A DNA stretch of 64,000 bases from Dehalococcoidia bacterium (GTDB taxonomy: Bacteria > Chloroflexota > Dehalococcoidia > Lucifugimonadales > G965248475), in assembly GCA_965248475.1 (NCBI GenBank), contig OZ252106.1, positions 20,746 to 84,745 on the forward strand, given 5' to 3'. The stretch's first letter is position 1. Every line of letters begins with the position of its first letter. The notes below the pieces were generated by a model, which worked only from the letters and a program-made list of their open reading frames with translations, did no database searches and was not told where the DNA came from. This document shows positions 11,335-38,935 of the stretch, one piece after another. The position numbers and the translations under genes are program-made.

Positions 11335-11400
11335 CCCACCCTCGAATGTTTATGCCCTCCGGTCCCGACAGGTCGGGACACTTTCCTGGAGTCTACTTAG
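11335..11400 (+). repeat. mosaic intergenic repeat, short copy (head + GGTCCCGAC-N-GTCGGGAC hairpin)
   Basis: ttctcaccgacccaccctcgaatg...ggtcccgacaggtcgggacac shares modules with the copies at 25608 and 35586. Confidence 0.6.
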
Positions 11401-11437
11401 TTCTTGTGCAGAGCCAGGCCCCCTCATTTTGAAACCC

Positions 11438-11460
11438 ATACCCCCTGGGTGGGGGTCTAC
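11438..11460 (-). promoter_or_regulatory. candidate CsoR operator (GC-rich inverted repeat ACCCCC-N5-GGGGGT)
   Basis: ATACCCCCTGGGTGGGGGTCTAC lies ~150 nt upstream of csoR. It resembles described CsoR operators (TACCC..GGGGTA type pseudo-palindromes). Confidence 0.45.
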
Positions 11461-11534
11461 GGATAGAATAGCAGTCGTTGGAGTGGGTGTCAAGAGGATA
11501 TGAAGGCTGCTGGTGCGGAGGCGATGGGAGGCTG

Positions 11535-12389
11535 CTAACTCACTTCTGCCAGGAAGCGTGAAACCACCTGGTTGAAGAACTCAAGATTATCGCCGTGGAC
11601 GTAGTGGGTGGCATCGGGCACCTCCACCCACCTGACGTTGGGGTTGGCCTTGGCCATCTCTTCTGCGGTCTCTCCTGAGAGGACGTCTGACATGGCGCCT
11701 CGCAGCACCAGCGTGGGGCACTGGAGACCGCGAACGTGGGGCCACAGGTCCATCTGTCTGTCAGGATTGGAGTCCTCCATGACCTTCATGATCCCCTGGA
11801 GGTCGTACTTCCAAGTGACCTTGCCGCCAGGCAGCTCCTTCAGTGTGTTTTCCAGGCGCAGCCTCATGGCCTCTTCAGAGATCAAGGGCCGTTGCTCCCG
11901 CCACATGGCCTCGGCCTCTGCCCAGGAGGCGAATTCCATAGGGGTGTTCTTTATCTCCTGTGCGATGCGATTGCCTCCGGTGGGTTGCGCGGCCCTGGGC
12001 CCCATGTCCTCTACTACTGCCGCCGCCACCCTGTCCGGGTGCTGGGACGCGTATACCATTGTGTTGGCACCACCCATGGAGTGGCCTATGAGCACGAAAC
12101 GGTCCAGGCCAAGCTGGTCAACCAGCTGCTCCAGGTCTGACACGTAGGACTGGGTGTGGTAGCGAAGCTCCGGATCCCAGTCGCTGTCGCCGCGCCCCCG
12201 CTGGTCGACTGCTATGACGCGGTAACGGTCGCTGAACTCCCGGGACACGCCGTCCCAGTCGTGCGCAAAGCTACGTAGCCCGTGGAGCAGGACTACGGGC
12301 ATGGCCTTCTGATCGCTCCAGTCCAGGTAGTGGATGCGCAATCCGTTGACCGTGGCGACTCCGTCGGTGACCTTTGCCTGGGTAGCCAT
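11535..12389 (-). CDS. alpha/beta-fold hydrolase
   Basis: HGLRSF..DW, nucleophile elbow GHSMGG, C-terminal ..DATHYVH. Start taken at ATG 12389 (MATQAKV) rather than the ORF-track 12464. Confidence 0.8.
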   Translation of the reverse strand: MATQAKVTDGVATVNGLRIHYLDWSDQKAMPVVLLHGLRSFAHDWDGVSREFSDRYRVIAVDQRGRGDSDWDPELRYHTQSYVSDLEQLVDQLGLDRFVLIGHSMGGANTMVYASQHPDRVAAAVVEDMGPRAAQPTGGNRIAQEIKNTPMEFASWAEAEAMWREQRPLISEEAMRLRLENTLKELPGGKVTWKYDLQGIMKVMEDSNPDRQMDLWPHVRGLQCPTLVLRGAMSDVLSGETAEEMAKANPNVRWVEVPDATHYVHGDNLEFFNQVVSRFLAEVS

Positions 12390-12506
12390 TTTCGTTTCCC
12401 TACTGGCGGCTGTATCCGGTGTGTTTGTAGTGCGAGGTTCTAATCTGGAGATAGCCCTACACAAAAAGTGCCGACGCCGGGACTATTATATTATCAGCAA
12501 GTCAAT

Positions 12507-12606
12507 TCTTCCCACCCACTCCACCCTCGGCATCTTTTTTTGGAGAAGGGGGACACCCCCTTAGACCCCCGGCAGAGAACCTGGAGTTCTCTGCACTCTC
12601 CTTGGG
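12507..12606 (+). repeat. mosaic intergenic repeat copy (head + GGGGGACACCCCC module + CAGAGAACC/GGTTCTCTG hairpin)
   Basis: ttcttcccacccactccaccctcgg..ggagaagggggacacccccttagaccccc..ggcagagaacctggagttctctgcactctccttggg. Confidence 0.8.
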
Positions 12607-12656
12607 ATCATCTATTAGTTGTCGTGCAAAGCAGATTCACTCGATGAGTGGACTCT

Positions 12657-13607
12657 TCAGCCAACCTCCGGCAGCACCTGCTCACCAAGGAGGCGTATGG
12701 TGCGCAACACCTGCTCCTGGGCCATACCTACCGCCTGCAAGCGGCAGATCATATATGTGGCGCCCAGACGCTCCTGATACTCCCGCACGCGTTCCATGCC
12801 TTGCTCCGGGGTGCCGACAATGAACTGGGTCAGTGTCCTGCGCTCGAACTCCTCACGTTCGTACTGGGGGCCCAGGAAGCGGTGTGCTTCTGACATGGCC
12901 TGTTCCTGATCGTCCGAGAGATAGACCCACGAGCTGACTGGAAAGTCGTTCGGGACGGGGTTGCCGAACTCGGCCAAGGCCGCGTGGTAGATGGCCTGTT
13001 GTGGCAGCAGCGGTTCGATGCCACCGCCGCCGGGGAACCAGACGTGGCCCAAGCGGGCTGCTCTGCGAATTGCGGCTTCGCTGCCGCCACCCAGCCAGAG
13101 ACGGGGATACGGCTTCTGGACGGGTATCGCCATTGCCTGGGTCTTGGGCACCGTGAAATACCTGCCCTGAAACTCTACGTCACCGCCCTGCCAAAGTAGC
13201 TTCATCACCTCCAGCGACTCCTCGAACCGGGACGGCCGGCGCCGACGGTCCACGCCGAATGCCTGGTACTCGATATCAACATTGCCCAGGCCAAGGCCGA
13301 GGATGAAGCGGCCGTTGGTCATGACGTCCAGGGTGGCTACCTGCTCGGCGATGTCCACCGGGTTGTGCAGGGGCAGTAGCAGCACAGAGGTGCCGATCTC
13401 CATATCGCCAGCATCGGCGGCGAGGCGAGCGAGGAGGGGCAGCGTCTGGAGGCGCTGATTGGGCGCTGTGAGATAGTGCTGGCCGCTTGTGACGATGGAG
13501 AAGCCCAGGTCCCGGGCCAGTCTTACCTGCTCGGCCAGGTCATGGAAGACCTGGGTCATGTCTGCGTCCGCTGGATGGTGGGCGGTGACCCACAGGCCGA
13601 ATTTCAA
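12657..13607 (-). CDS. LLM-class (luciferase-like) flavin/F420-dependent oxidoreductase
   Basis: MKFGLWV..start typical of the family, TIM-barrel-length ORF, LGLGLGN..EY..FG motif. TTG start with AGGAGGA 5 nt upstream. Confidence 0.8.
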   Translation of the reverse strand: MKFGLWVTAHHPADADMTQVFHDLAEQVRLARDLGFSIVTSGQHYLTAPNQRLQTLPLLARLAADAGDMEIGTSVLLLPLHNPVDIAEQVATLDVMTNGRFILGLGLGNVDIEYQAFGVDRRRRPSRFEESLEVMKLLWQGGDVEFQGRYFTVPKTQAMAIPVQKPYPRLWLGGGSEAAIRRAARLGHVWFPGGGGIEPLLPQQAIYHAALAEFGNPVPNDFPVSSWVYLSDDQEQAMSEAHRFLGPQYEREEFERRTLTQFIVGTPEQGMERVREYQERLGATYMICRLQAVGMAQEQVLRTIRLLGEQVLPEVG

Positions 13608-13924
13608 GGAGTCCTCCTATATCTGTACGGCAGGTTCCCTGGGTGGGATGAATGAAATCTGGAGTTGAATGGTCGATGTTGATTGATTTATCGGGTTTTG
13701 GTGCTGCGGCAGCTTTGCATGGTATCTGCGTGAGGGTGCATGATCCCAGATAGGATGGCCTGATTGTTTCAGAAAAGGTGATTAGGAGCGGTAGGTCGAT
13801 TTTAAGGTAGTCCAGTCCATAGAGGCCATCACAAGGTAGAGTATCAGAGTTAGTCTGAGCCTGGGTAGAGAGGTGTGGCATGGGTGCAACGGCAAGCGCC
13901 AGGCGTTCGTTTGCGGCAGGCGTC

Positions 13925-14255
13925 TTTTTCCCACCCACCCACCCTCGTATGTTTGTCAGTTAGGGAGGACACCTCCTCCGACTTTGTCGCGAGTCGCGAT
14001 GAGCGAAGCATCATCGGACCTAAGACCTGCTGGCAGAGAACCCAGGTTCTCTGCACTCTCCTTGGATGGTTGCAGTTCCTCAACGGCGTGTGAGTGTTGC
14101 CTGCCCACCTGCCCTTAGTATCTTTTTGAAAGAAGGGGGACACCTCCTCGACTTGTCCGGACACATCGGGATGAGAGAAGTGCCGACTCGGTCGAGCACT
14201 CACGATGGAATCGGAGACTCGCGACTCCTGTCGGAGCTCAGCATGAGCGGTACTT
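13925..14255 (+). repeat. mosaic intergenic repeat, largest composite (two head-to-tail sets of modules)
   Basis: It holds a perfect CCCACCCACCCACCC head, a short and a long CCGACTT(T)GTC..GATGAG..ATCGGA module, the CAGAGAACC hairpin and the GATGGAATCGGAGACTCGCGACTCCTGTCGGAGCTCAGCATGAGCGG module. Confidence 0.8.
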
Positions 14256-14327
14256 CTGCCAACCCCAGGGTGTATCATCACTGTGGGCGGTGGTGTTCCC
14301 GAAGCATTTCCCCGGTAGGATGAAACT

Positions 14328-14867
14328 ATGGCCCCGTTCGGCCCATTGCTCAGCTTTCTTTCCGACTTGTCTAAGGTCCCTATTTTGGAGATGGGAACGG
14401 AAGCTTCTGGGCCATTCGAGATTGAGGAGCCCCACCCCATACTATTTTCTGGAAACTCAACGCTTGATTATGTATACATTGCATATCGTCTGAAGGTGCA
14501 CAATAAGCAAAAGTATTTTCTGAACAGTGCTGCCGAAAGTTGTGTAGCCTGGCTTGATCTTGAAAGAACTCCTGAGGCATATCAACTTGCATGGGTGGGT
14601 AGTCAAGCAGAGATGACCATCAACGTAGGTGACTATCGAGAGATAGACCTCTGCGCTAGAGTTGCTCGCAATGGCTCGATAGTAGCTCCGACGGAACGAG
14701 GTTACTGGGGTACGGAGGAGAGACGTTCAAGTCCAAGGACCATCGGGAATGGCATAGATGAATTGAGAGGCGAAATACGGGTGACGTCCGCCAATGGTAA
14801 GCTGGTTTCACGGAGGATAATCATATCGCCAACTAATGACAGACATCTCACCGTTGACATTCATTGA
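14328..14867 (+). CDS. hypothetical protein (orphan, visibly lower GC)
   Basis: ORF only. No recognisable motif. The 5' part overlaps repeat-derived sequence, so the true start is probably internal (e.g. MGTEASGPFE). Confidence 0.3.
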   Translation: MAPFGPLLSFLSDLSKVPILEMGTEASGPFEIEEPHPILFSGNSTLDYVYIAYRLKVHNKQKYFLNSAAESCVAWLDLERTPEAYQLAWVGSQAEMTINVGDYREIDLCARVARNGSIVAPTERGYWGTEERRSSPRTIGNGIDELRGEIRVTSANGKLVSRRIIISPTNDRHLTVDIH

Positions 14868-15031
14868 GTCTTCTCACTATTGCTAATCAGAGCAGAGTTC
14901 CGAGCGGGTGGGCGCTGCGTTTCCTGGGAGAAACGTGCTCGGGATGCTAGCTCTCCAGATAGGGAGTCCGGTTGCGGGCCTTCCCAACAACCTGCTAGCA
15001 TTCTCGGCGACCATCTAAGGAGAGTCCAAGA

Positions 15032-16108
15032 TTGGGTAAAATAAAGGTAGCAATCATAGGCGTAGGTAACTGTGCATCATCTCTTATTCAAGGGGTGCAT
15101 AAGTATCGCGAGGCGCCTGACGACGGGCCAATCCCCGGCCTGATGCACACAGTACTGGGCGACTATCACATTGGCGATATCGAGTTCGTTGCCGCCTTTG
15201 ATATAGACAAGAACAAGGTTGGTCTGGACCTGAGCGAGGCGATCTGCGCCCCCCCCAATAACACCTTTACATTCGCCGACGTGCCCCACATGGGCGTGAC
15301 GGTGCAGCGGGGCATGACGCACGACGGGATAGGCAAGTACGTGGCGGAGAAGGTCCAGAAGGCCCCAGGGTCCACAGTAGATATCGTCAATGTGCTCCAG
15401 GAGACCGGGGCCGAGGTGGTGGTCAGCTACCTGCCCGTGGGTAGCGAGGAGGCCACCAAGTGGTATGTAGAGCAGATCCTGGAGGCGGGATGCGCCTTCG
15501 TCAACTGCATTCCGGTATTCATCGCCAGGGAGTCGTACTGGCAGGGCCGGTTCGAAAAGAAGGGCCTGCCTATCATCGGCGACGACATTAAGTCGCAGGT
15601 AGGCTCCACCATCGTACACAGGGTGCTCACGCGTCTGTTTGAGGATCGGGGCGTCAAGGTGGAGAGGACTTATCAGCTCAATTTTGGTGGCAATATGGAC
15701 TTCCTGAACATGCTGGAGCGGGAGCGGTTGGATTCGAAGAAGATATCCAAGACCAATGCGGTCACCTCCCAACTCACCGACAATGAAAAGCTTGACGAAG
15801 ACAACGTTCACATCGGCCCCAGCGACTACGTGCCGTGGCTGAATGACCGGAAGTGGGCACACATACGCCTGGAGGGCCGGACATTTGGCGACGTTCCACT
15901 CAACCTGGAGCTGAAGCTTGAGGTGTGGGACAGCCCGAACTCGGCGGGAGTTGTGGTAGACGCTATCCGCTGCTGCAAGCTGGCGTTGGACCGGGGCATG
16001 TCAGGTGCTCTAACTGCGCCTTCTTCCTACTTTATGAAGTCGCCGCCAGTCCAGTACACTGACTCCGAGGCCCATGACAACGTGGAGGCCTTTATCCGGG
16101 GCGAGTAG
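15032..16108 (+). CDS. ino1: myo-inositol-1-phosphate synthase
   Basis: [21 protein letters not shown] Rossmann start, ..YLPVGSE..ATKWY.., ..[11 protein letters not shown].., ..SDYVPWL.. match short bacterial/archaeal MIPS. TTG start preceded by AAGGAG. Confidence 0.9.
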
Positions 16109-16183
16109 GGCAGCGCACCAGATCCAGCTACGGGTTGTCCCGCAGGCTCCGGGCCGGAGGGCCGACACCAGGCGAGATATGTT

Positions 16184-17371
16184 ATGAAGGTAGCGCTAGT
16201 ATCACCGTACGACTTCGCATACCCTGGCGGGGTTGTATCGCACATATCGCAGCTGTCATTGCAGTTGGAGCGGATGGGGCATACGGTCAAGATCATTGCA
16301 CCCGCGACGGCTCCCAATGCCAACGCGCTGGGGCTGGCCAACCTGATACCGGTAGGCCGTCCGTTCCCAGTTCCCAGCGGTGGGTCCATTGCCCGCATAT
16401 CACTCTCTGTGTGGCGGGAACGGCGGGTGAAGACCATCCTGCGGGAGGAGGGCTTCGACGTCATCCATCTGCACGAGCCGCTGGCGCCGGTGCTCCCTCC
16501 CACGGTGCTCCACCTTTCGAATACTGTAAATGTTGGGACGTTCCACGCCTTTCACGGGAGGGCATGGCAGTATCGGTTGAGCCGGAGGATCATCCGATAC
16601 TGGTTTGACAGGCTGGACGGCCGCATAGCCGTTTCCCAGCCCGCGCTTGGGTATATCAGCAGGTTCTTTCCCGGCGACTACACGGTTGTTCCAAACGGTG
16701 TGGACGCGGACTGGTACGCTGAGCCGGTCCCTCCCTTCGATGCGTTCAACGACGGCAAGCTGAACATTCTGTACCTGGGCCGGATGGAGAAACGCAAGGG
16801 CCTGAAGTACCTGCTGGCGGCCTTCAGCAGGCTGAAGTGGGACTACCCAAATATTCGTCTCATAGTTGTAGGGCCCGGGAACCCAGGCAAGGAGTGCTAC
16901 CGGCTCATGGCCGAGCGGAACCTTCAGGATGTCGTCTTCGTCGGGCATGTCAGTGACGACGCGAAGCGGAGGTACTTCCGTACGGCGGACATATTCTGCG
17001 CACCCGCGACCGGCAAGGAGAGTTTTGGGATAGTGCTGTGCGAGGCTATGGCATCGGGCATACCCATAGTTGCCTCCAACATAGACGGGTTCAACAGCGT
17101 GTTGACCGATGGACAGGAGGGGTTCATGGTGCCTCCCAAGAACGAGGAGGCCCTGGCCCTGGCGTTGGAGAAGCTGGTCAAGGACGCTGACCTGCGCCGC
17201 CAGATGGGTCAGATGGGTATGAAAACGGTCCAGAAGTACCGGTGGAGCAGGGTTGCCGAGCAGGTGGTCCGGTGCTACGAAGACGCCGCCGTTCATCGCG
17301 CCGCGCCGCATGGGGGAGATGGGCCTGGGGATGCGGATCTTGGGAAGACGGAGGCGGCGGTTGGCGGTTAG
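16184..17371 (+). CDS. GT4-family glycosyltransferase, PimA-like (phosphatidylinositol mannosyltransferase-like)
   Basis: MKVALVSPYDFAYPGGV.H start plus C-terminal E-x7-E GT4 signature region (FCAPATGKESFGIVLCEAMASG). Its position between ino1 and a PI-phosphate synthase-like gene supports the role. Confidence 0.75.
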   Translation: MKVALVSPYDFAYPGGVVSHISQLSLQLERMGHTVKIIAPATAPNANALGLANLIPVGRPFPVPSGGSIARISLSVWRERRVKTILREEGFDVIHLHEPLAPVLPPTVLHLSNTVNVGTFHAFHGRAWQYRLSRRIIRYWFDRLDGRIAVSQPALGYISRFFPGDYTVVPNGVDADWYAEPVPPFDAFNDGKLNILYLGRMEKRKGLKYLLAAFSRLKWDYPNIRLIVVGPGNPGKECYRLMAERNLQDVVFVGHVSDDAKRRYFRTADIFCAPATGKESFGIVLCEAMASGIPIVASNIDGFNSVLTDGQEGFMVPPKNEEALALALEKLVKDADLRRQMGQMGMKTVQKYRWSRVAEQVVRCYEDAAVHRAAPHGGDGPGDADLGKTEAAVGG

Positions 17372-17948: not shown

Positions 17949-18011
17949 GGCGTGCCCTGCACCGGCGTTGTTTCTGCTGCTCGGTTCGACCTTCACCCGT
18001 AAGAACAGACA

Positions 18012-18170: not shown

Positions 18171-18179
18171 GCAGATCAC

Positions 18180-18517: not shown

Positions 18518-18530
18518 AATATTCCTCCTG

Positions 18531-21116: not shown

Positions 21117-21118
21117 TG

Positions 21119-24409: not shown

Positions 24410-24466
24410 CAGGGCGTGGCTGGATACTAGGCGTGGCCTAGGCGTGGGATGTTTGGATCAGATGTG

Positions 24467-24815
24467 TTCTTCCCACCCACCCGCCCTCGGTACCTTTTGA
24501 AAAAGGGGGGCACCCCCTTAGACCCCCGACATGGAACCCAGGTTCCCTGTACCTTCCTGTAGTTGAAGCATCTTTGTGTGAAGTGGGGACGCACCTCAAG
24601 CTTCCTAGTCCCAACAGGTTGGGACACCCGCGTTCTCTGCTGCTAGTGACCAGTCCAGTACTGGGTCGGTCAGGCCTGTGAGGTTCTCCCACCGCGCCAG
24701 ATGCTTCGGTCGTTTCGATGGGTCGGAACTCCCTCGAGCATGACAGTGGGGATACCGCTCATGTGCTTCCCTTCGGCTTCGCTCAGGATAAACTTCGACT
24801 CAGCATGAGCGGAGG
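24467..24815 (+). repeat. mosaic intergenic repeat, long composite copy
   Basis: ttcttcccacccacccgccctcgg..aaaaaggggggcacccccttagaccccc..ggaacccaggttcc..agtcccaacaggttgggacaccc...ttcgactcagcatgagcgg. It lies between convergent genes. Confidence 0.75.
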
Positions 24816-24864: not shown

Positions 24865-25608
24865 CTATTGTGCGAAGTCGGTGGGAGAGTCCAGGTGGTC
24901 CAGTACCTCCATAAGCGATTCTATCCTGGGGCAGTCGGTGACGTCGGTCATCACGCCGTCGCGGTCCAGCAGCAACGGGCGTATGCCCACGCCCTGTGCA
25001 CCCTGAACGTCCGAGCGGTAGGAATCGCCGACGTGTATCGCCTCGTCGGGGGCCACCCCTGCACGTTCAAGCGCCTTCAGGAATACGGGTGGATGGGGCT
25101 TGCCGATGCCAACCTCTGTGGAGCTCACCGTGAAGTCCAGGTAGGGTGCCAGGCCCAGGCTCTCGCACATTTCGTCGATGTCCCGACCTATGTTGCTGAT
25201 AAGACCCAGCGTCAGCTCCCGCAGCTTGAGCATGTCCATGACGGGAAGCGTATCGTCGAAGGCGGCGAAGGTGTAGGGAATCTGCTGCACCTTGGCCCAC
25301 ACCCGCCCGGCGGTATCCAGGTCCACGTTGATGCCTGCGCCCTCCATGATCAGACGCTGGTACTCGGCGAAGAAATGATCGCGTTCCTGGCCCTGTCGCC
25401 ACGAAAGGGGTGTGTCGCTGGCGTTGATCTGGGACATCCAATCGTCAGCGCCGACGTAACCACGGGCGATGCCTGCCTTTGTGGCGGTGAAGCCGAAGCT
25501 CTCCAGAGCCTGGGTCTGCACCTCCTCTCTGGGAGGATTGAACCCGGCCAGTGTGCCGTAGAAGTCGAAGAAGACGGCCTTGATCATTTCTCTTTGCTCC
25601 AGCGCCAT
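24865..25608 (-). CDS. HAD-superfamily hydrolase
   Basis: VFFDFYGTL (motif I DxD-like), ..LISN.. (motif II), ..HVGDSYRSDVQGA (motif IV). Confidence 0.85.
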   Translation of the reverse strand: MALEQREMIKAVFFDFYGTLAGFNPPREEVQTQALESFGFTATKAGIARGYVGADDWMSQINASDTPLSWRQGQERDHFFAEYQRLIMEGAGINVDLDTAGRVWAKVQQIPYTFAAFDDTLPVMDMLKLRELTLGLISNIGRDIDEMCESLGLAPYLDFTVSSTEVGIGKPHPPVFLKALERAGVAPDEAIHVGDSYRSDVQGAQGVGIRPLLLDRDGVMTDVTDCPRIESLMEVLDHLDSPTDFAQ

Positions 25609-25695
25609 TTTCCCACCCGCTCCACCCTCGTTACCTTTTGGGAGAAGGGGGGCACCCCCTTAGACCCCCCGGTCCCGACCTGTCGGGACACCTTC
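25608..25695 (+). repeat. mosaic intergenic repeat copy (head + GGGGGGCACCCCC module + GGTCCCGAC hairpin)
   Basis: ttttcccacccgctccaccctcgttaccttttgggagaaggggggcacccccttagaccccccggtcccgacctgtcgggacacc. It starts at the HAD start codon. Confidence 0.8.
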
Positions 25696-25808
25696 CTATT
25701 ATGCAGCCGAACATTCGGGAAGGATGCTTTTTCCCTTGAGCAAAGGTTGTGCTCCCTGGGGCTCTATTTTACCATTGCGATCGGGCATTGGGCCTCAGGT
25801 AGAGAGGG

Positions 25809-29065: not shown

Positions 29066-29075
29066 CAGGGGTCCA

Positions 29076-30179: not shown

Positions 30180-30259
30180 GTAATACCGCGAGTCTGCTCG
30201 CTGGGGACGGTCTGGAAGCGCCTTTGAAGTTGCACCGATAACTGATCCACTACTATTGA

Positions 30260-31564: not shown

Positions 31565-31585
31565 ACCGGAAGGCAGCGCTGGCAG

Positions 31586-32677: not shown

Positions 32678-32691
32678 GCTATGGGAGAGGC

Positions 32692-33258
32692 ATGATAGAG
32701 GAGCGAACAGTCCAGGAAGCGGTCACAGAGCTCCTGCGCTACATTGGGGAGGACCCTCAGCGCAGTGGCCTGGTGGATACACCAAGGCGCGTGGCTGAGA
32801 TGTACCTGGAGCTGTTTTCCGGCGTAGACCAGGACCCTGCCAAGGAGCTGCAGGTCACATTCGACGAAGGCAACGGCGATATGGTGGTGCTGCGGGACAT
32901 CAGCTTCTACTCGATGTGCGAGCATCACCTCATACCCTTCTTCGGCTCCGCCAGCATCGGCTACCTTCCCAACGGAAGTGTGGTCGGCGTGAGCAAGTTG
33001 GTACGGGCGCTGGGGGTGCTCGCACATCGCCCGCAGCTTCAGGAGCGGCTCACCGCCCAGCTCGCGGACGCGCTGCTAAATACACTCCACCCGGAAGGCG
33101 TGGCAGTGGTGTTGAACGCGGAGCACCTTTGCATCAGTATGCGCGGCGTGCAGAAGCCGGGTACCAAGGTGGTTACCTCTGCTGTACGCGGCAGCTTTCG
33201 CCGCGAGTCGCTGAATCGCAAAGAAATACTAACGCTACTCGGGGGAGGCGCAGAGTGA
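32692..33258 (+). CDS. folE: GTP cyclohydrolase I
   Basis: GL.DTP.RVA.MY.E.F.G.., ..FYSMCEHHLIPFFG.., ..RPQLQERLT.. Confidence 0.95.
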   Translation: MIEERTVQEAVTELLRYIGEDPQRSGLVDTPRRVAEMYLELFSGVDQDPAKELQVTFDEGNGDMVVLRDISFYSMCEHHLIPFFGSASIGYLPNGSVVGVSKLVRALGVLAHRPQLQERLTAQLADALLNTLHPEGVAVVLNAEHLCISMRGVQKPGTKVVTSAVRGSFRRESLNRKEILTLLGGGAE

Positions 33259-34232
33259 CGCTTACCGTAGCGCAGGAGGGGTTCGACGAGATTTGGGCAG
33301 ATTGGGAATCGCTACTGTCTGAGTGCTCCCAACCCACGGTGTTCCAGACGCCACTATGGCATCGGGCCTGGTGGGATGAGGAGGAGGGGGAGGCCGAGCT
33401 TCGCCTGGTGGCGATTCGAGACAGCGGGGTTCTGGTGGGTGTGGCTCCTCTGATGTACCGCGACGATACGCTGATGTCTTTGGGGGACCCGGACCTGTGG
33501 GACTACCAGACGTTCGTGACAGCACGGGGGCGGGAGTCGGAGCTGTATCAGGAACTGTTCGACTACCTGGCGGAACAGCCGTGGAACAAGATGGAGCTCA
33601 GCTCGCTTCCGGAAGGCTCCCCTTCCCTTGAGCTCATCCCAGAGATGGCACGGAGCAAGGGCTATTCGGTGGATGTATCGGAGCAGGACGTATCGCCTGG
33701 GTTGCCTTTGCCGTCCAGTTGGGACGACTACCTGGCGGGGCTGTCCAAGAAAGGCCGCCACGAGCTGCGGCGCAAGTTCCGGCGTCTGGAGAACAACGGG
33801 ACATACGAAGTGTACTCAGTAGATGGAGCATTGTCCCTGGACGGCTCACTGGACGACTTTTTTCGCATGATGCGGGACAGCCGTCAGGACAAGGCCATGT
33901 TCCTTACACCGAAGCGGGAGCAGTTCTTCCGGCACATGGCTGAAGAGATGGCCCGTGCGGACGTGCTGCGGCTGTTTTTCATGGAGGTGTCAGGGGAGCG
34001 TGTCGCCAGCGTGATGTGCTTTGACTATGGGCAGGTACGGTTCCTCTACAATGCGGGGTATAATCCGGAGTACGCCCCGTTGAGTGTCGGTCTGCTGCTC
34101 AAGAGTACATGTCTCCAGCAGGCCATCGAGCAGGATATGGGGTATTTCGACTTTCTCAGGGGAGACGAGCGTTACAAGTATGAACTGGGAGCACAGGTGG
34201 TACAGGTGTACCGGATGGTAGTCCAGCGATGA
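33255..34232 (+). CDS. GNAT-fold acetyltransferase, FemAB/CelD-like
   Basis: Start set at GTG 33255, overlapping the folE stop (GTGA). ..FQTPLWHRAWW.., ..YNAGYNPEY..LSVG.. and ..YFDFLRGDE.YKY..G resemble BioF2-like/CelD-type GNAT domains. Confidence 0.65.
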   Translation: MTLTVAQEGFDEIWADWESLLSECSQPTVFQTPLWHRAWWDEEEGEAELRLVAIRDSGVLVGVAPLMYRDDTLMSLGDPDLWDYQTFVTARGRESELYQELFDYLAEQPWNKMELSSLPEGSPSLELIPEMARSKGYSVDVSEQDVSPGLPLPSSWDDYLAGLSKKGRHELRRKFRRLENNGTYEVYSVDGALSLDGSLDDFFRMMRDSRQDKAMFLTPKREQFFRHMAEEMARADVLRLFFMEVSGERVASVMCFDYGQVRFLYNAGYNPEYAPLSVGLLLKSTCLQQAIEQDMGYFDFLRGDERYKYELGAQVVQVYRMVVQR

Positions 34233-34332
34233 ACCTCTTACCGACGATGTCTCATCTTACGGACGGTTGGTTCAGGTCTGCCGTAGCGGCAGCGGTGCGT
34301 TGAAGCAACATTAGAGGCGCAAAGCGAGCAGG

Positions 34333-35571
34333 ATGTCGTCAAACAGGATCGCATTCATAAGTGTGCACGGATGTCCCCTGGCCCGCCTGGGTACAAGGGA
34401 CTCCGGTGGAATGAATGTTTACGTCCACAGGCTGGCCAGCGCCCTGGGACGCCTTGGGTGCCAGGTAGACATATTTACACGGGCTCACGACACGCAGGAG
34501 CCGTCCATCGTGGAGTTGGACGACAACACCCGGCTAATTCATCTTGAGGCTGGGCCTGTCGACGCTCCCAAAGAGGAGCTCGTCCAGTATCTGCCCGATT
34601 TTCTGTCCCGGCTCAGGGACTTTCAGCAGGACAGCGGCCTTGCGTATGACACGATCCACAGCCACTACTGGCTTTCCGGATGGGTAGGCGGCGAGCTGGC
34701 ACGGGAGTGGGGCGTGCCCCACGTAGCCACGTTCCATACCTTGGCAGAGGTGAAGAGCAGAGCGCGCGTAGGTGAAGGAGATGCGGGGCCCCGGAGCGGA
34801 GTTGAGCAGCAGGTTACCGCGGCGGCGGACGGGATCGTGGTCTCTACCGGACATGAACGCACGGCCCTGGCGCAGCTCTATGATGTGCCCGAAGAGAAGG
34901 TGTACGTCATACCCGCGGGGGTTGACCTGGATCTGTTCAAGCCCGGAGACCAGGCTGCGGCCAGGGATCAGCTGGGGTTGAATGGGGGTCGCGTGCTGCT
35001 ATATGTGGGCCGGCTGGAGCCTATCAAGGGTCTGGAGGTCCTTATGTACACCCTGGGCAGCATGGAAGAGCCAGGGGATGTGCGTCTGCTTGTTATCGGT
35101 GGTGACGGCGAGCGTGACGAGGGGTATCAGAGGATGATGGGGTTGGCCAGGGAGCTGAACATTGAAGACCGGGTAGACTTTCTTGGCAGCCTCAGCCACG
35201 GCCTGCTGCCCCTGTACTACCAGGCGGCAGACGTGTGCGTTGTACCGTCCTACTACGAGAGCTTTGGGTTGGTGGCGCTGGAGGCTATGGCATGCGGCAC
35301 ACCCGTGGTGGGCTCTCGCGTGCCGGGTCTGGAGACCATCGTACGGGACAACTGGTCTGGCTACCTGGTGCCGTGGCACTGCCCTGACGCCTTCGTAGAC
35401 CGGATAGAGGTTTTGCTGGCCAACGAAGACTTGAGACAGAGCATGGGCGAAGAGGCCCAGGTTACGGCTGCTGGGATGAGTTGGGACCGAATGGCGGTAT
35501 CGGTGGCTGAGGTATACGCGGAGCTTGAGGAGCATGGCATCCAGCGATTAGCCGGCCCCGTGAAGGGCTAA
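34333..35571 (+). CDS. GT4-family glycosyltransferase, MshA-like
   Basis: ISVHGCPLARLG..DSGGMNVYV.. N-terminal signature shared with MshA-type enzymes; C-terminal E-x7-E region (VVPSYYESFGLVALEAMACG). Confidence 0.75.
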   Translation: MSSNRIAFISVHGCPLARLGTRDSGGMNVYVHRLASALGRLGCQVDIFTRAHDTQEPSIVELDDNTRLIHLEAGPVDAPKEELVQYLPDFLSRLRDFQQDSGLAYDTIHSHYWLSGWVGGELAREWGVPHVATFHTLAEVKSRARVGEGDAGPRSGVEQQVTAAADGIVVSTGHERTALAQLYDVPEEKVYVIPAGVDLDLFKPGDQAAARDQLGLNGGRVLLYVGRLEPIKGLEVLMYTLGSMEEPGDVRLLVIGGDGERDEGYQRMMGLARELNIEDRVDFLGSLSHGLLPLYYQAADVCVVPSYYESFGLVALEAMACGTPVVGSRVPGLETIVRDNWSGYLVPWHCPDAFVDRIEVLLANEDLRQSMGEEAQVTAAGMSWDRMAVSVAEVYAELEEHGIQRLAGPVKG

Positions 35572-35585
35572 CTCTAGGCGGGGGA

Positions 35586-35775
35586 CTTCGTCCCATCCGC
35601 TCCGCCCTCGCTACCTTCTTGGGGGAAGTGGGACACCCCTCCGACTTTGTCCCGACACATCGGGATGAGCGGAGTGCCGACTCGGTCGAGCACTCGAGAT
35701 GGAATCGGAGCATCATCGGACCGAGAACTTCCCGATCCCGACGAGTCGGGACACCCTCTTTGGGCGCCCACCCAC
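35586..35775 (+). repeat. mosaic intergenic repeat copy
   Basis: Degenerate head (cttcgtcccatccgctccgccctcg), then ccgactttgtcccgacacatcgggatgagcggagtgccgactcggtcgagcactcgagatggaatcggagcatcatcggacc and the hairpin gatcccgacgagtcgggacaccc. Nearly identical to the 38767 copy. Confidence 0.85.
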
Positions 35776-35853
35776 AGTACGAGTCTTTAGTACGATAGAA
35801 TGGACTATGTGGAGTGACGTGGATGATGGCGCAGTGAAAAACGGGGAGCATCT

Positions 35854-36969
35854 ATGAGGCCTTCATATACCCTTATCCGTATCGGTGGGATACGTATAAG
35901 CGTCCATTTCACCTGGCTTTTTGCCGTTGGATTTATAGCGCTGACACTGTCAGAGGGTTTTTTCCCTGCCTACTTTAGGGGATGGAGTACCGCCACCTAC
36001 TGGGGCACCGGGATATTGGCGTCGCTGCTCCTCTTTCTGTCGGTGCTGGTGCATGAGCTGGCGCATTCTTTTGTCGCTCAGGCCAGGGGACTGAAGGTGG
36101 AGGGCATTACGCTGTTCATATTCGGCGGTGTGAGCAACATGGGCAGCGAACCCACCCAGGCCAGGGACGAGTTTGCGATAGCGGTGGTGGGACCGCTGAC
36201 CAGTCTGGTGCTTGCGGCACTCTTCTGGGCACTGTATATGGCCACTGGCGACGGCAATGGCCCTGTGGTGGCTGTCATGTTCTATCTGGGGTACATGAAC
36301 GCCCTGCTCGCTGTGTTCAATATGATGCCCGGCTTCCCGCTGGATGGGGGTCGGGTGCTCCGCTCCGTTGTGTGGGGCGTTACAGGAAACCTGTCCAGGG
36401 CCACCAACATCGCTGCAGGGGTAGGGCAGGCCTTTGGCTGGTCTCTGGTGGGCCTGGGCGTCTACCAGGTCCTGCAGGGAAGCATTGCCGGCGGCCTGTG
36501 GATGGCTGTCATAGGCTGGTTCCTGAGCAGCATCGCCGGGGCCAACCGTAAGGAGAGCATGATTGAGAAGCGGTTCCGGGGGGTGCGCGTCGATCAGTTG
36601 ATGGACCGAGGTGCGGCGGCGGTCTCGTCTGGGACGTTGGTGGAGGTATTGGTCCGCGAGCATTTCATGCAGCGGGGCAGCCGCGCCGCTCCGGTTGTTG
36701 AGTATGACAGGATCGTCGGCATCGCCACACTAACAGATGTCAGGGCAGTGCCGCAGGACCGGTGGGCGGAGGTACGGGTGGAGGAGGTAATGACCAGGGA
36801 GCCTCTCTACAGCGTGGGTCCCGACGATGAGCTGGGCGTTGCGCTGCGGATGCTGGCCGAGCATAGCTTGAATCAGGTGATGGTGCTAAGCGGTGGTCGA
36901 CTGGTCGGCCTTCTGAGCAGGGCCGACGTGATTCGGTACCTACAGTTCAGCCGGGGTCGGGGTGATTGA
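35854..36969 (+). CDS. M50-family site-2 metalloprotease with C-terminal CBS pair
   Basis: HELAHSFVA (HExxH) inside a TM helix, ..NMMPGFPLDGGRV.. second motif, two CBS-like repeats at the C terminus. Confidence 0.85.
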   Translation: MRPSYTLIRIGGIRISVHFTWLFAVGFIALTLSEGFFPAYFRGWSTATYWGTGILASLLLFLSVLVHELAHSFVAQARGLKVEGITLFIFGGVSNMGSEPTQARDEFAIAVVGPLTSLVLAALFWALYMATGDGNGPVVAVMFYLGYMNALLAVFNMMPGFPLDGGRVLRSVVWGVTGNLSRATNIAAGVGQAFGWSLVGLGVYQVLQGSIAGGLWMAVIGWFLSSIAGANRKESMIEKRFRGVRVDQLMDRGAAAVSSGTLVEVLVREHFMQRGSRAAPVVEYDRIVGIATLTDVRAVPQDRWAEVRVEEVMTREPLYSVGPDDELGVALRMLAEHSLNQVMVLSGGRLVGLLSRADVIRYLQFSRGRGD

Positions 36970-37029
36970 TCTGAGCGGGAATACGGCCTGGCAGGGTGGC
37001 TGCTCATGGCCTTCGACAGGTCCGAGTAG

Positions 37030-37110
37030 GCCCGACACGTCGAGGCTCGCGATGGAATCAGAGACTCACGATTCCTGTCGGAGTTCAGGCTGGGGGACTC
37101 CTTAGGGGCA
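37030..37110 (+). repeat. mosaic intergenic repeat, partial copy
   Basis: cccgacacgtcgaggctcgcgatggaatcagagactcacgattcctgtcggagttcagg matches the module at 14195..14250. Confidence 0.6.
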
Positions 37111-37219
37111 CGGCTGTTCCATACCTATGCGTATAAGCCCTGGCTATGCTTGGAGTGGGGGTAGGGCCCACCTGTAGAATGATGCGATATGTATCACGAC
37201 TTTGGGATTGAGGACATAG

Positions 37220-38203
37220 TTGGAACTCGCTGAGTCTCTCGGTATCTTCTCCCTGACCGCGGTGGTAATTGTGGTGGCCGCCGTTCTCCTGGCTATATCG
37301 TCAGACGTAATAGCGGACCGGTCCGGCTGGGGCCGCCTATGGGTAGGTTCGCTGCTTATGGCGGGAGCCACCTCCCTGCCGGAGTTGGTAACCAATATCG
37401 CGGCGGTACGCATAGGCGCGCCGGCGCTGGCAGCGGGGGACATTCTGGGTGCCAACATGCTCAACATGAACAACCTTGCGCTGCTGGCCAGCGGGCTGGG
37501 GGGGGGTGAGGTGTTCCGGCGGCTGATGCCCCAGCAGGCGTTGGTGGCCCTGCTAGCTATGGCGCTTACTGGAATAGCGACTCTTTCCGCAGCGCTTCAG
37601 ATAGAGATCCGCTGGCTGTTTCTGAGCCCGCCTTCGCTGGCAATTCTGGTGGGGTACGTGGTTGGATCGCGCATCCTTTATCGGATGACCGTTGAGGTGT
37701 CGGATGTGGAAACACCTGCTGAGGGGCGCTCGCTTCGCTGGGGTTGGACCATGTTCATCATATCGGCGGCGGCCATCAGCGGGTCGGCTCCGTTCCTGGC
37801 CACGAGCGCCCAGAGCATCGCCGAGATCACGGGTCTTGGCGAGAGTTTCGTCGGAGTCGTTGCCGTGGCATTCGTGACAACACTTCCGGAGCTGGTTGCC
37901 ACCGGCACGGCTTTACGGCAGGGTGCGGACGACCTGGCTGTGGCGGGCATGTTCGGCACCAACGCCTTCAACGTGGGCGCTCTGGCGGTTGCTGATATGT
38001 TCTCGCCCAGTGAATCACTGTTCGGGAGCCTGGACGGGAGTCATGTAGCTGCGGGGCTGTTCGCCATCTTGCTCATGGGTATAGCTGCGTTGCAGGTGTG
38101 GAGGCGGCGACGGCTGCCGTGGTTCTCAGTTACGGAATTCAGCACGGCGCTGATTGTGGGCGTGTACGCACTGGGACTATTCCTGGTGTACCGACTAGGG
38201 TGA
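37220..38203 (+). CDS. CaCA-family sodium/calcium antiporter (YrbG-like)
   Basis: Two alpha-repeat signatures (GATSLPELVTNIAAV and FVTTLPELVATGTAL), about 10 TM spans. TTG start. Confidence 0.8.
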   Translation: MELAESLGIFSLTAVVIVVAAVLLAISSDVIADRSGWGRLWVGSLLMAGATSLPELVTNIAAVRIGAPALAAGDILGANMLNMNNLALLASGLGGGEVFRRLMPQQALVALLAMALTGIATLSAALQIEIRWLFLSPPSLAILVGYVVGSRILYRMTVEVSDVETPAEGRSLRWGWTMFIISAAAISGSAPFLATSAQSIAEITGLGESFVGVVAVAFVTTLPELVATGTALRQGADDLAVAGMFGTNAFNVGALAVADMFSPSESLFGSLDGSHVAAGLFAILLMGIAALQVWRRRRLPWFSVTEFSTALIVGVYALGLFLVYRLG

Positions 38204-38221
38204 GACCGGGCAGGCTGTGGG

Positions 38222-38662
38222 CTAGTCAAGCAGCAGCTTTAGCAGGTCGTGGCGGGTGACGATTCCAACCAGGTCCTGGCCGCGCATTACAGGGAACCTG
38301 TGGATATCCTTGCTCACCATGAGGCGTGCCATCTCCGCGATCGGTGCATCCTCCTGGACGGTGGTGACGGGCTGTTTCATAACATCCCGCACCTTTTTTG
38401 ACCTTATCTCCTGAGAGACCTCCTCCAGCTGATCGGGGTTGGCCCAGGAGTCCATGAGGGTGTACAGGTTACCCGCAAGGGGCATGAACTTGTGGTGGAG
38501 ACCGAAGTCGGAGTGGGTAAGCATGCCCACAAGCTGACCCTGGCCGTCCACCACCGGCAGGCAACTGAGGTTGTACTCCAGCAGCAGCCTGGCCGCGCTT
38601 TCAACGGTCTCTTCAGCGTTGATGGTGACAACCGGCGCGGTCATCAGGTCTTTGGCTTGCAT
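38222..38662 (-). CDS. CBS-pair domain protein
   Basis: Two CBS repeats (AKDLMTAPVVTI..LLLEYNLSCLPVVD; VRDVMKQPVTTV..LMVSKDIHRFPVM). Confidence 0.85.
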   Translation of the reverse strand: MQAKDLMTAPVVTINAEETVESAARLLLEYNLSCLPVVDGQGQLVGMLTHSDFGLHHKFMPLAGNLYTLMDSWANPDQLEEVSQEIRSKKVRDVMKQPVTTVQEDAPIAEMARLMVSKDIHRFPVMRGQDLVGIVTRHDLLKLLLD

Positions 38663-38766
38663 GAGGGTGTCCTTAGTGTGACATTATATATGGTGATGCC
38701 GTTATGGGCTAACGCAACTTTGCCTAAAAAGCATGGCTCCCCGTTGGAATTTTCCAGCCAGACGCT

Positions 38767-38935
38767 TTCTTCCCACCCACCCACCCTCGAAGGTTATTTC
38801 TGAGGGCACATCCTCCGACTTTGTCCCGACACATCGGGATGAGCGAAGTGCCGACTCGGTCGAGCACTCGCGATGGAATCGGAGCATCATCGGACCTCAG
38901 ACTCCCTGCCAGAGGGGGTATTCCCCCCTGGGCTC
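38767..38935 (+). repeat. mosaic intergenic repeat copy with perfect CCCACCCACCCACCC head
   Basis: ttcttcccacccacccaccctcga..ccgactttgtcccgacacatcgggatgagcgaagtgccgactcggtcgagcactcgcgatggaatcggagcatcatcggacc.. Confidence 0.85.

What the first reader, a model, noticed from the sequence alone, without database searches (positions are those of the whole stretch)
11335..38935. Modular (mosaic) intergenic repeat family, all copies on the same strand, absent from the islands
At least eight intergenic sites carry different combinations of the same sequence modules: 11335, 12507, 13925, 24467, 25608, 35586, 37030 and 38767. (1) A head, TTCTTCCCACCCACCCACCCTCG. (2) ..GAAGGGGGRCACCCCCTTAGACCCCC, or the variant GGGACACCTCCTCCGACTTTGTC. 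(3) The hairpin GGCAGAGAACC-N-GGTTCTCTGCACTCTCCTTGG. (4) A ~75-nt block, CCGACTTTGTCCCGACACATCGGGATGAGCGRAGTGCCGACTCGGTCGAGCACTCGMGATGGAATCGGAGCATCATCGGACC, nearly identical at 35640 and 38812. (5) The hairpin GGTCCCGAC-N2-3-GTCGGGACAC. (6) GATGGAATCRGAGACTCRCGAYTCCTGTCGGAGYTCAG(C/G)..CATGAGCGG. Copies range from ~60 to ~350 nt, and they generate the spurious recurring peptides in the ORF track (FPTHPPS.., SDFVPTHRDERSADSVEHSRWNRSIIGP). Every copy I found has the head on the plus strand, whether the flanking genes are convergent, divergent or tandem. None lies in 39.2-64 kb or 0-11 kb. This resembles BIME/REP-like mosaic elements, but I do not recognise the modules.
Basis: seen in the sequence. 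Interest (0 to 1): 0.65.

Follow-up and report, generated by a model that had tools for sequence, protein, structure and literature searches.

The report
Strand-polar mosaic repeats: MITE plus nuclease-type hairpins
The repeats are real, but they are three kinds of small non-coding DNA element nested in one another (a miniature transposon, short hairpin units that flank small GIY-YIG nuclease genes, and hairpin cassettes); nearly all point the same way relative to replication direction, which ordinary miniature transposons do not do.

Summary
All eight sites carry the modules, and the genome holds about 115 such loci, 92 on one strand and 23 on the other.

The "family" is a composite of three element types:
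- **Core (A).** About 100 nt: a C-rich head (CCCACCCACCCRCCC), two covarying hairpins and a CACYYTCC tail. Full-length copies have terminal inverted repeats and roughly 10-bp target-site duplications, so it is a MITE. It occurs in 50 of 151 sampled genomes of the order, with up to about 150 copies per genome. It has no Rfam match.
- **24-nt units (B).** GTCATTCTGAG..CGAAGAATC and CGCTCAYSCTGAGC..TCGAAGG..ATGAGCG. They resemble Neisseria NTS/Ssn motifs and flank three or four of the five small GIY-YIG nuclease genes.
- **Cassettes (C).** TCCGAY..TCGGAC and TCCCGAC..GTCGGGA. They sit at one fixed position in hairpin 1 in 28 copies, without duplication, and also in the unit loops.

In this genome, orientation follows gene-corrected GC skew (p about 1e-8; 56:4 in one replichore), while protein genes are at 51%. 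RAYT/Y1 transposases do not co-occur with the core.

The likely mechanism is replication-coupled handling of single-stranded DNA. That step is inferred, not shown. No RNA data were available.

The parts
11318..11414 (+). Truncated core. It has the head (TACTTCTCACCGACCCACCCTCG) and hp2 of the TCCCGAC..GTCGGGA type, but no hp1. A right-end repeat, TTGTGCAGAGC, lies at 11404-11414. The head overlaps the start of the CsoR-like gene on the - strand.
   Evidence: (29.7 bits)
12454..12632 (+). Full-length core element of 179 nt. Left end is GCCCTACACAAAAAGT. Head, hp1 (AAGGGGGACACCCCCTT) and hp2 (GCAGAGAACC..GTTCTCTGC) follow. Right end is TCGTGCAAAGC.
   Evidence: (84 bits)
13921..14067 (+). Core carrying a 43-nt TCCGAC..CATCATCGGAC cassette (13977-14019) at the fixed site in the 3' arm of hp1.
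   Evidence: (70.7 bits)
14091..14252 (+). Degenerate second core (head and hp1). It is fused to a hybrid of the long cassette and the 3' half of a type-B unit, ending ..GAGCTCAGCATGAGCGG. The join lies at the shared block CGATGGAATCGGAG.
   Evidence: (23 bits)
24463..24563 (+). Plain core with no insert, in a convergent gap.
   Evidence: 94.1 bits
24693..24815 (-). Two unit-type elements on the opposite strand. One is GTCATGCTCGAG-[hairpin]-CGAAGCATC. The other is a CGCTCATGCTGAG..CACATGAGCGG unit.
25603..25702 (+). Core with TCCCGAC-type hp2. The head abuts the ATG of the HAD-hydrolase gene on the - strand.
   Evidence: (56.6 bits)
35583..35770 (+). Core with the 82-nt cassette (35640-35721) in hp1. 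Its hp2 is ATCCCGACGAGTCGGGAC.
37010..37100 (+). Type-B element: a 24-nt unit carrying a 63-nt TCCGA..TCGGA insert.
38763..38944 (+). Core with the 82-nt cassette (38814-38895) in hp1. Its hp2 is CCAGAGGGGGTATTCCCCCCTGG. A promoter-like extension, TTGCCT-N19-TGGAAT, lies upstream.
   Evidence: (59.8 bits)

Best explanation
The mosaic is built from three kinds of small non-coding mobile or selfish DNA element that nest in one another.

**A. The core is a MITE.**
- It is about 100 nt: a C-rich head, hairpin 1 with an ACA(C) loop, a CCCCYG linker, hairpin 2 (CAGRG..CYCTG) and a CACYYTCC tail.
- Full-length copies are about 140-180 nt.
- They end in GGCYTTGCACAAAAAG / CTTTTTGTGCAAAGC and are flanked by roughly 10-bp target duplications.
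- The MITE is old and widespread in this order, and present in other orders of the class.

**B. The 24-nt units resemble Ssn recognition motifs.**
- The units are GTCATTCTGAG-CGAAG-CGAAGAATC and CGCTCAYSCTGAGC-NNG-TCGAAGGRY-ATGAGCG.
- They are built like the Neisseria NTS/Ssn-related motifs (GTCATTC...GAATC).
- They flank the genome's small single-domain GIY-YIG nuclease genes.
- They are most likely recognition hairpins of those nucleases, read as single-stranded DNA.

**C. The cassettes enter at fixed positions.** Cassettes bounded by TCCGA/TCGGA, or made of TCCCGAC-N-GTCGGGA, enter the 3' arm of hairpin 1 and the loop of the units. They leave no target duplication. Recombination at shared blocks then yields the mosaic.

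**Polarity.** All three types keep one strand relative to replication. The C-rich head strand is the locally G-rich strand, which I take as the leading strand. The GTCATTC motif strand is its complement.

**Shown:** the anatomy, covariation, inverted repeats and target duplications, the fixed insertion site, the gene-repeat association, and the link between orientation and skew.

**Inferred:** the polarity arises because these hairpins are made or cut only in single-stranded DNA at the fork. Either insertion is replication-coupled, or copies whose cleavable strand sits on the lagging-strand template are lost.
For: **Core: distribution and structure**
- The core model R1 finds 89 matches in this genome.
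- It finds 50 of 151 genomes of the order and 38 of 88 genera.
- It finds 90 copies in G040 and 148 in G068.
- It also hits other orders of the class. In other classes it matches partially, with the two hairpins only.
- Covariation on 54 copies from more than 20 genomes: 93% of cells paired, 14 of 17 pairs with changes on both sides, about 58% paired in slid controls.

**Core: MITE features**
- The end pattern has 227 matches in G008, against 0 for the reversed control.
- Target duplications seen: GTAGCGTAGG at 10/10, plus others.
- Flank test: mean 6.9 of 9 matches against 4.7 for mismatched flanks. Scores of 8 or more occur in 3 of 10 true pairs and 0 of 90 controls.
- An own-genome copy has CATGTGCCAG at 10/10.

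**Cassettes**
- In 28 copies, removing TCCGAY..CATCATCGGAC restores a perfect hairpin 1.
- All four combinations exist: two hairpin variants, each with or without a 36-nt block.
- An insert at the same site occurs in another family, G010.

**Units and nuclease genes**
- The genome has five small GIY-YIG ORFs of 81-118 aa.
- Genes 1, 2 and 4 have a unit directly upstream and another downstream. Gene 3 is flanked by TCCCGAC hairpins.
- The unit matches the NTS at GTCATTC...GAATC (NTS sequence from PMC11893778).

**Polarity**
- Loci orientation against gene-strand-balanced skew: Fisher p about 1e-8.
- The right replichore has 56:4, and the association holds inside the left replichore, p=0.003. 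dnaA lies at 2.084 Mb.
- Protein genes are only 51% co-oriented with the G-rich strand.
- Units run 54:10 on the opposite strand. They are opposite to the neighbouring head in 37 of 40 cases, and their association with skew has p=0.0035.
- Type B and the cassettes share the same polarity.
- G040 shows two large orientation domains.
- Family-specific replication-linked orientation bias is documented for IS elements (PMC3971601).
Against: - No autonomous IS with matching ends was found in this genome or in the sampled part of G008.
- The published degenerate SRM pattern does not hit the units above chance: 14 hits against about 16 expected.
- The GIY-YIG proteins match no NCBIfam model. They match a UPF0213 structure only weakly. 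Their membership of the Ssn subfamily is therefore unproven.
- GIY-YIG copy number is only modestly higher in genomes that have the core (2.45 against 1.74, p=0.0035, not corrected for phylogeny). Some core-rich genomes have only one GIY-YIG match, presumably UvrC.
- Skew sampling in two other genomes was inconclusive. There was no difference in G008 and a weak trend in G040. The samples were 20-kb windows, not corrected for gene strand.
- In this genome, 1.80-2.08 Mb lies on the left replichore, has near-zero skew, and still carries 19 + copies against 2 - copies.
- No nuclease activity, mobility or transcription was observed.
Confidence: 0.6

Rival explanations
1. The core is a family of structured RNAs. 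It could be an sRNA or a cis-acting UTR element, such as a 3'-end stabiliser or terminator with hairpins plus an RNA G-quadruplex on the antisense strand. On this view it is kept by the host, and its mobility is secondary.
For: - Covariation is strong, and the single-stranded C-rich segments are conserved across an order.
- A subfamily carries a promoter-like TTGCAY-N17-19-TGGAAT upstream of the head.
- Copies are enriched where a gene's 3' end faces the element: convergent gaps 16.8% and antisense tandem gaps 13.1%, against 4.6% for sense tandem gaps.
- One lineage keeps a G.U pair at the base of hp2 on the head strand.
Against: - Orientation follows replication skew, not the flanking genes.
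- Neither hairpin is followed by a U-run, and the scans find no promoter or terminator consensus in the elements.
- Folding energies are no better than shuffles, with z from -1.8 to +1.5.
- The wobble test is undecided: 29 G.T against 20 A.C.
- The promoter-like extension is absent in G008.
- Terminal repeats and target duplications show transposition.
- Flanking genes are functionally unrelated.
- There is no Rfam match.
Confidence: 0.12
2. It is a REP/BIME-type system mobilised by a RAYT or IS200/IS605 Y1 transposase through single-stranded DNA.
For: - The architecture is a hairpin mosaic.
- The strand polarity is of the kind known for single-strand transposons.
- The cassettes insert without a target duplication.
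- Two RAYT genes are present in the genome.
Against: - Y1_Tnp occurs in only 14 of 151 genomes and is absent from G008, G018, G012 and G068, which carry tens to about 150 copies.
- The own RAYTs are flanked by a different, GTAG-tagged hairpin with only 2-3 copies.
- The core has terminal inverted repeats and roughly 10-bp duplications, which Y1 transposition does not make.
- I saw no GTAG or CGTC tag on the modules when reading them.
Confidence: 0.06
3. The elements are host-selected, replication-polar DNA sites. The C-rich head, with its G-quadruplex complement, and the two hairpins would act on one template strand at the fork, for example in priming, fork pausing or chromosome organisation. 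Transposition would only be the means of spread.
For: - Polarity is 93% in the right replichore while genes are at 51%.
- The C-tracts are invariant across the order.
- 40 of the genome's 64 short-loop G4 motifs lie in the heads.
Against: - Only about half of the heads keep four C3 tracts.
- Copy number varies from 0 or 1 to about 150 among related genomes, so the element is not essential.
- Density along the chromosome is very uneven.
Confidence: 0.1
4. The polarity is a by-product of local copying. Tandem or segmental duplication, or short-range hopping that keeps orientation, would produce it, with no link to replication.
For: - Orientation is blocky in G068 and G008.
- Tandem arrays with about 200-nt spacing occur there.
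- The skew samples in G008 show no difference between + and - blocks.
Against: - Three unrelated element types share the polarity.
- The association with gene-corrected skew holds within each replichore.
- Copies are dispersed between unrelated genes over 1.1 Mb with a 56:4 orientation.
Confidence: 0.1

Closest known systems
Bacterial MITEs with structured interiors: ERIC/IRU, Correia (CREE), RUP and BOX
   Same: - Small, non-coding and intergenic.
- Terminal inverted repeats and target duplications.
- Stable internal hairpins.
- Size variants made by inserts at fixed internal sites (as in ERIC) or by modules (as in BOX).
- Tens to hundreds of copies.
- These properties of the named families are from my general knowledge.
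   Different: - The interior, not just the ends, is conserved with compensatory changes across an order.
- The duplication is about 10 bp.
- No partner IS was found.
- Orientation is strongly polar relative to replication skew.
NTS / dRS3 / Ssn-related motifs with the SsnA GIY-YIG single-strand nuclease (Chenal et al. 2025, PMC11893778)
   Same: - Oriented hairpin repeats of 24-35 nt with GTCATTC...GAATC arms.
- Rarely found inside genes.
- Small single-domain GIY-YIG genes are flanked by their own repeat.
   Different: - The published degenerate SRM pattern does not match.
- Membership of the proteins in the Ssn subfamily is untested.
- Here the units accept nested cassettes and show replication polarity. 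The paper does not mention 'leading strand' at all.
REP/BIME/REPIN with RAYT
   Same: - Mosaic combinations of hairpin modules in intergenic DNA.
- A single-strand logic is suspected.
   Different: - There is no co-occurrence with Y1 transposases.
- The hairpins carry no GTAG or CGTC tag.
- The core carries terminal repeats and target duplications.
IS200/IS605 and their PATE derivatives; replication-biased IS families (Gomez et al. 2014, PMC3971601)
   Same: - Orientation is tied to the direction of replication.
- The cassettes insert without duplication at a defined sequence or structure.
   Different: - No matching transposase was found.
- The core makes duplications.
- At 93% in one replichore, the bias here is strong for a non-autonomous element of about 100 nt.

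Membership tests
MITE | Terminal inverted repeats | tested here: met
   GGCYTTGCACAAAAAG / CTTTTTGTGCAAAGC. There are 227 end matches in G008 against 0 for the reversed control. Own-genome copies also carry them.
MITE | Target-site duplication of fixed length | tested here: met
   Direct repeats of about 9-11 bp are seen. Two are perfect 10-mers. Flanks of the same copy match better than flanks of different copies: 6.9 against 4.7 of 9.
MITE | Short, non-coding, multi-copy | tested here: met
   Copies are 100-180 nt. There are 89 model matches in this genome, and they are intergenic.
MITE | Autonomous IS with the same ends | tested here: inconclusive
   None was found in this genome. A wide end-pair in G008 proved to be two separate copies around a thioesterase gene.
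REP/BIME with RAYT | Co-occurrence with a Y1 (RAYT) transposase gene flanked by the same hairpin | tested here: not met
   PF01797 occurs in 14 of 151 genomes and is absent from the element-rich ones. The own RAYTs are flanked by GTAGGGGCGGGTTT, which has 2-3 copies.
REP/BIME with RAYT | 20-40-nt imperfect palindrome with a GTAG or CGTC tag | tested here: not met
   Reading of the modules shows no such tag on hp1, hp2 or the cassettes.
Ssn / SRM system | Small single-domain GIY-YIG gene flanked by its own hairpin repeat | tested here: met
   There are five ORFs of 81-118 aa. Genes 1, 2 and 4 have a unit upstream and downstream, and gene 3 has TCCCGAC hairpins on both sides.
Ssn / SRM system | Repeat fits the published SRM pattern HGTCWY..RNCYNB | tested here: not met
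   14 hits against about 16 expected, and none lies in the elements. The unit fails at one degenerate position, although it shares GTCATTC..GAATC with the NTS.
Ssn / SRM system | Protein belongs to cd10448 and cuts single-stranded DNA at the motif | not testable with these tools
   The proteins match Pfam GIY-YIG, no NCBIfam model and, weakly, the UPF0213 structure 1ZG2.
Described RNA families (Rfam 15) | Match to a covariance model | tested here: not met
   There is no match at gathering scores, and none at E<=5 over 11-39.2 kb.
Intrinsic terminators | GC-rich hairpin followed by a T-run | tested here: not met
   No element hairpin is flagged by the scan. hp2 is followed by CACYYTCC.

The most novel reading that the evidence does not exclude
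In this lineage, reported by other agents of this scan to be Chloroflexota, one replication-coupled single-strand DNA process governs a whole ecosystem of hairpin repeats. Small Ssn-like GIY-YIG nucleases would recognise oriented hairpins on one strand. This would drive hairpin-targeted, duplication-free insertion of cassettes. It would also purge copies whose cleavable strand lies on the lagging-strand template. The repeat orientation would then be a fossil record of replication direction and of past inversions. That would make Ssn-type nucleases agents of repeat mobility or genome polarity, beyond their described role in restricting transformation.
Probability: 0.2. Interest if true: 0.8.

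Novelty: new variant of a known kind. Interest (0 to 1): 0.6.

Why it matters
- **Abundance.** These elements are the dominant intergenic repeats of a widespread, mostly uncultured lineage. Other agents' notes describe the genome as a SAR202-like Dehalococcoidia; I did not verify this.
- **Assembly.** The repeats break metagenome assemblies. Logan contigs end at 35388/35666, 37039 and 38840, exactly at elements.
- **Annotation.** They create spurious ORFs and false start codons.
- **Genome history.** Their near-uniform polarity gives a cheap marker of replication direction and of inverted blocks in genomes with weak skew.
- **A testable link.** The association between nested hairpin cassettes and small GIY-YIG genes can be tested at the bench. 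It bears on the open question of what Ssn-type single-strand nucleases do outside Neisseria.
- **An unusual MITE.** A MITE whose interior is conserved with covariation across an order is a good case for asking whether selection acts on the element's DNA structure, on its RNA, or on the host.

Tried and rejected
- **Rfam.** No family matches at gathering scores or at E<=5.
- **RAYT/Y1 mobilisation.** Rejected on distribution and on the RAYTs' own, different hairpin.
- **Published SRM regex.** No enrichment.
- **Folding energy against shuffles.** Not significant for cores, the cassette or type B. The support for structure rests on covariation alone.
- **Strand of folding from wobble pairs.** Undecided, with 29 G.T against 20 A.C. 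The outer inverted repeat shows wobbles on either strand in different copies.
- **Promoter and terminator scans.** Nothing lies in the elements.
- **Autonomous partner.** I tried self-BLAST of long repeats, a search for end pairs, and a candidate at 884-886 kb. The candidate is a methyltransferase insertion. A wide end-pair in G008 is two copies around a thioesterase gene.
- **Single-copy genome G006.** The one copy lies upstream of an SDR-like gene, which is uninformative.
- **Polarity in other genomes.** Twelve 20-kb skew samples were inconclusive.
- **G-quadruplex as the conserved feature.** Only about half of the heads keep four C3 tracts.
- **GIY-YIG as a requirement for the core.** The association is only modest, and some core-rich genomes have a single GIY-YIG match.

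Full report
**1. Observation**

The window is C1:20746-84745 of a single-contig genome of 2.40 Mb with 59.5% GC.
- The head motif occurs four times in the window with at most 3 mismatches, against none in shuffles.
- Reading the eight cited sites confirms the modules.
- BLAST with the eight copies gives 115 loci in the genome, about 14 kb in all, nearly all intergenic.
- Of these, 92 have the head on the + strand and 23 on the - strand.
- Within the window every copy is on + and lies between 11.3 and 38.9 kb.

**2. Anatomy of the core**

Aligning copies by eye and then with relatives shows a core of about 100 nt. It reads as follows:
- YTTCTTCCCACCCRCCCRCCCT, followed by a spacer rich in T;
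- hairpin 1 (for example TGAGGGG-ACA-CCCCTCA, AAGGGGG-ACA-CCCCCTT or TAGGGAGG-ACA-CCTCCCTA);
- the linker RACYCCCYGG;
- hairpin 2, with a CAGRG..CYCTG base and a freely varying top, or TCCCGAC-N-GTCGGGA;
- the tail CACYYTCC.

Modules 2a and 2b are versions of hairpin 1.

I built a covariance model, R1. Its matches are:
- 89 in this genome;
- 50 of 151 sampled genomes of the same order, and 38 of 88 genera;
- 90 copies in G040 and 148 in G068;
- three genomes of other orders of the class;
- the two-hairpin part alone in other classes of the phylum.

Some complete genomes have one copy or none.

I tested covariation on 54 copies from more than 20 genomes.
- 93% of pair cells are standard pairs.
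- 14 of 17 pairs show changes on both sides.
- Slid controls give about 58% paired.

Folding energies are not better than shuffles. The wobble test does not decide which strand folds. Rfam has no match, even at E<=5.

**3. The core is a MITE**

In G008 the core is bounded by GGCYTTGCACAAAAAG and CTTTTTGTGCAAAGC. The end pattern has 227 matches there, against none for the reversed control. The same ends occur on full-length copies in this genome.

The flanks carry direct repeats of about 10 bp.
- GTAGCGTAGG is a perfect 10/10 match. TACCTGCGCC, ACTCTACCC, CCTAGACC and GGGGAAGGT are near-perfect.
- CATGTGCCAG is a perfect 10/10 match at 2311422/2311600 of this genome.
- Flanks of the same copy match at 6.9 of 9 on average, against 4.7 for flanks of different copies.
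- Scores of 8 or more occur in 3 of 10 true pairs and in 0 of 90 controls.

First-reader notes from other genomes describe what appears to be the same element, with 9-bp and 14-bp direct repeats (e1-5085336, e1-2195596). A follow-up agent called a related element a structured MITE (e1-2496190). I found no autonomous partner.

**4. Cassettes in hairpin 1**

Twenty-eight copies carry an insert that starts TCCGAY and ends CATCATCGGAC. It is always placed after the third or fourth base of the 3' arm of hairpin 1. Removing it restores a perfect hairpin in every sequence type of hairpin 1.
- There is no target duplication.
- Lengths are about 42, 46, 78 and 82 nt (observed range 42-82).
- These four lengths are the four combinations of two inner hairpins, GTCGCGA-G-TCGCGAT or GTCCCGA-CACA-TCGGGAT, with or without a 36-nt block.
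- The inserts are about 93-95% alike. The host cores are only about 83-93% identical to the window copy. The inserts are therefore younger than the cores.
- A different insert with the same TCCGA start sits at the same site in another family, G010.

**5. Units and GIY-YIG genes**

A note from another genome pointed to Ssn-type repeats (e1-922118), so I looked for GIY-YIG genes.

This genome has UvrC and five small ORFs of 81-118 aa with the GIY-YIG domain. Their surroundings are shown.
- Gene 4 (1903 kb) is preceded by TGTCATTCTGAGCGAAGCGAAGAATCTAAGG. It is followed by GTCATTCTGAG-TCCCGACCTGTCGGGA-CGAAGAATC.
- Gene 2 (2320 kb) has the same kind of unit before and after it.
- Gene 1 (1841 kb) has CGCTCACCCTGAGCCYGTCGAAGGGT before and after it. 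It also has inverted type-B-like copies on both sides.
- Gene 3 (433 kb) lies beside a tRNA gene, between tRNA fragments that each carry a TCCCGAC-N-GTCGGGA hairpin.

A pattern search finds 64 such units. Their centre is either 3-5 nt, or a TCCCGAC hairpin, or a 63-nt TCCGA..TCGGA insert. It has 20 copies at about 95% identity.

The unit shares GTCATTC...GAATC with the Neisseria NTS, CGTCATTCCCGCG..GCGGGAATC (PMC11893778).

Three results limit the claim.
- The published degenerate SRM pattern is not enriched.
- The proteins match no NCBIfam model, and match a UPF0213 structure only weakly.
- GIY-YIG counts are only modestly higher in genomes that have the core.

**6. Polarity**
- The head strand is the locally G-rich strand. 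Elements were masked and + and - genes weighted equally. The test gives Fisher p about 1e-8.
- dnaA lies at 2.084 Mb, where skew turns positive. The cumulative skew peaks near 0.78 Mb.
- From 2.08 Mb through 0 to 0.78 Mb there are 56 + copies and 4 - copies.
- On the other replichore orientation is mixed but still follows local skew, p=0.003. Blocks of + copies lie in positive or near-zero skew. This reads as past inversions.
- Protein genes are 51% co-oriented with the G-rich strand.
- The units, written GTCATTC.., lie 54:10 on the opposite strand. They are opposite to the neighbouring head in 37 of 40 cases, and their association with skew has p=0.0035.
- G040 shows two large orientation domains.
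- Skew samples from G008 and G040 were inconclusive.
- Other agents reported skew-following hairpin repeats in other Chloroflexota (e1-4975278, e1-1231369). One reported transcription-following orientation (e1-3877053). In this genome my data favour skew.

**7. Context**
- Elements are more frequent in convergent gaps (16.8%) and in tandem gaps read antisense to the head (13.1%).
- They are less frequent in sense tandem gaps (4.6%) and in divergent gaps (8.8%).
- Flanking genes are unrelated.
- No promoter or terminator consensus lies in the elements.
- A subfamily has a promoter-like TTGCAY-N17-19-TGGAAT before the head.
- The heads supply 40 of the genome's 64 short-loop G4 motifs. Only about half of the heads keep four C3 tracts.

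**8. Reading**

Shown:
- a composite of a widespread structured MITE, nuclease-associated hairpin units and nested cassettes;
- all three types are strand-polar in this genome.

Inferred:
- The hairpins are made or cut as single-stranded DNA, probably by the small GIY-YIG nucleases.
- Replication asymmetry sets the polarity. It does so either at insertion, as in the precedents for IS families (PMC3971601), or by loss of copies whose cleavable strand lies on the lagging-strand template.

RAYT-based mobilisation is not supported.

RNA function could not be tested.

The lineage label (Chloroflexota, SAR202-like Dehalococcoidia) comes from other agents' notes. I did not check it.

Noticed in passing
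genome C1:433000-433900 (outside the window): A small GIY-YIG gene lies just downstream of a tRNA gene that I read as tRNA-Asn (GTT anticodon); I did not run a tRNA finder on it. The gene sits between partial tRNA copies in which the anticodon arm is replaced by a TCCCGAC-N-GTCGGGA hairpin (GGTAGAG-TCCCGACACGTCGGGA-TTAACCGG). It looks like a hairpin cassette, or the nuclease gene itself, inserted into a tRNA gene with partial duplication.
   Followed up: partly
genome C1:1821450-1824300 (outside the window): Two RAYT-like Y1 transposase genes are each flanked by GTAGGGGCGGGTTTSAAA hairpins. That hairpin has only 2-3 copies in the genome, so it is unrelated to the abundant repeats.
   Followed up: partly
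window 59476-59574 (-): Rfam match to group II intron domain V/VI at 62.8 bits. It lies in the element-free part of the window.
   Followed up: no
window 35388-35666, 37039, 38840-38877, 39195: Logan contigs of the metagenome runs that hold this genome end exactly at the repeat elements. The repeats fragment short-read assemblies.
   Followed up: no
window 39068-39248: Summed contig depth in the metagenomes jumps to 1300-5500x here, against about 3-11x around it. The stretch contains a tRNA-3'-half-like sequence (..GGTTCGAATCCCTGATGGCCCACCA) shared by many organisms. It borders the island that another agent described.
   Followed up: no
genome C1:884150-886540 (outside the window): A Dam-like DNA methyltransferase (DPPY motif) and an unknown neighbouring gene are inserted between metabolic genes. 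This is possibly a restriction-modification pair.
   Followed up: no
genome C1, 1.80-2.08 Mb and 0.95-1.05 Mb: These blocks have a GC skew and a repeat orientation that disagree with their side of dnaA (2.084 Mb). They are candidate large inversions or an origin displaced from dnaA. In G040 the orientation switch also lies about 330 kb from dnaA.
   Followed up: partly
G068:C1:134700-135210 and 2943860-2944340: Tandem arrays of three or more core elements at about 200-nt spacing, all in one orientation.
   Followed up: no
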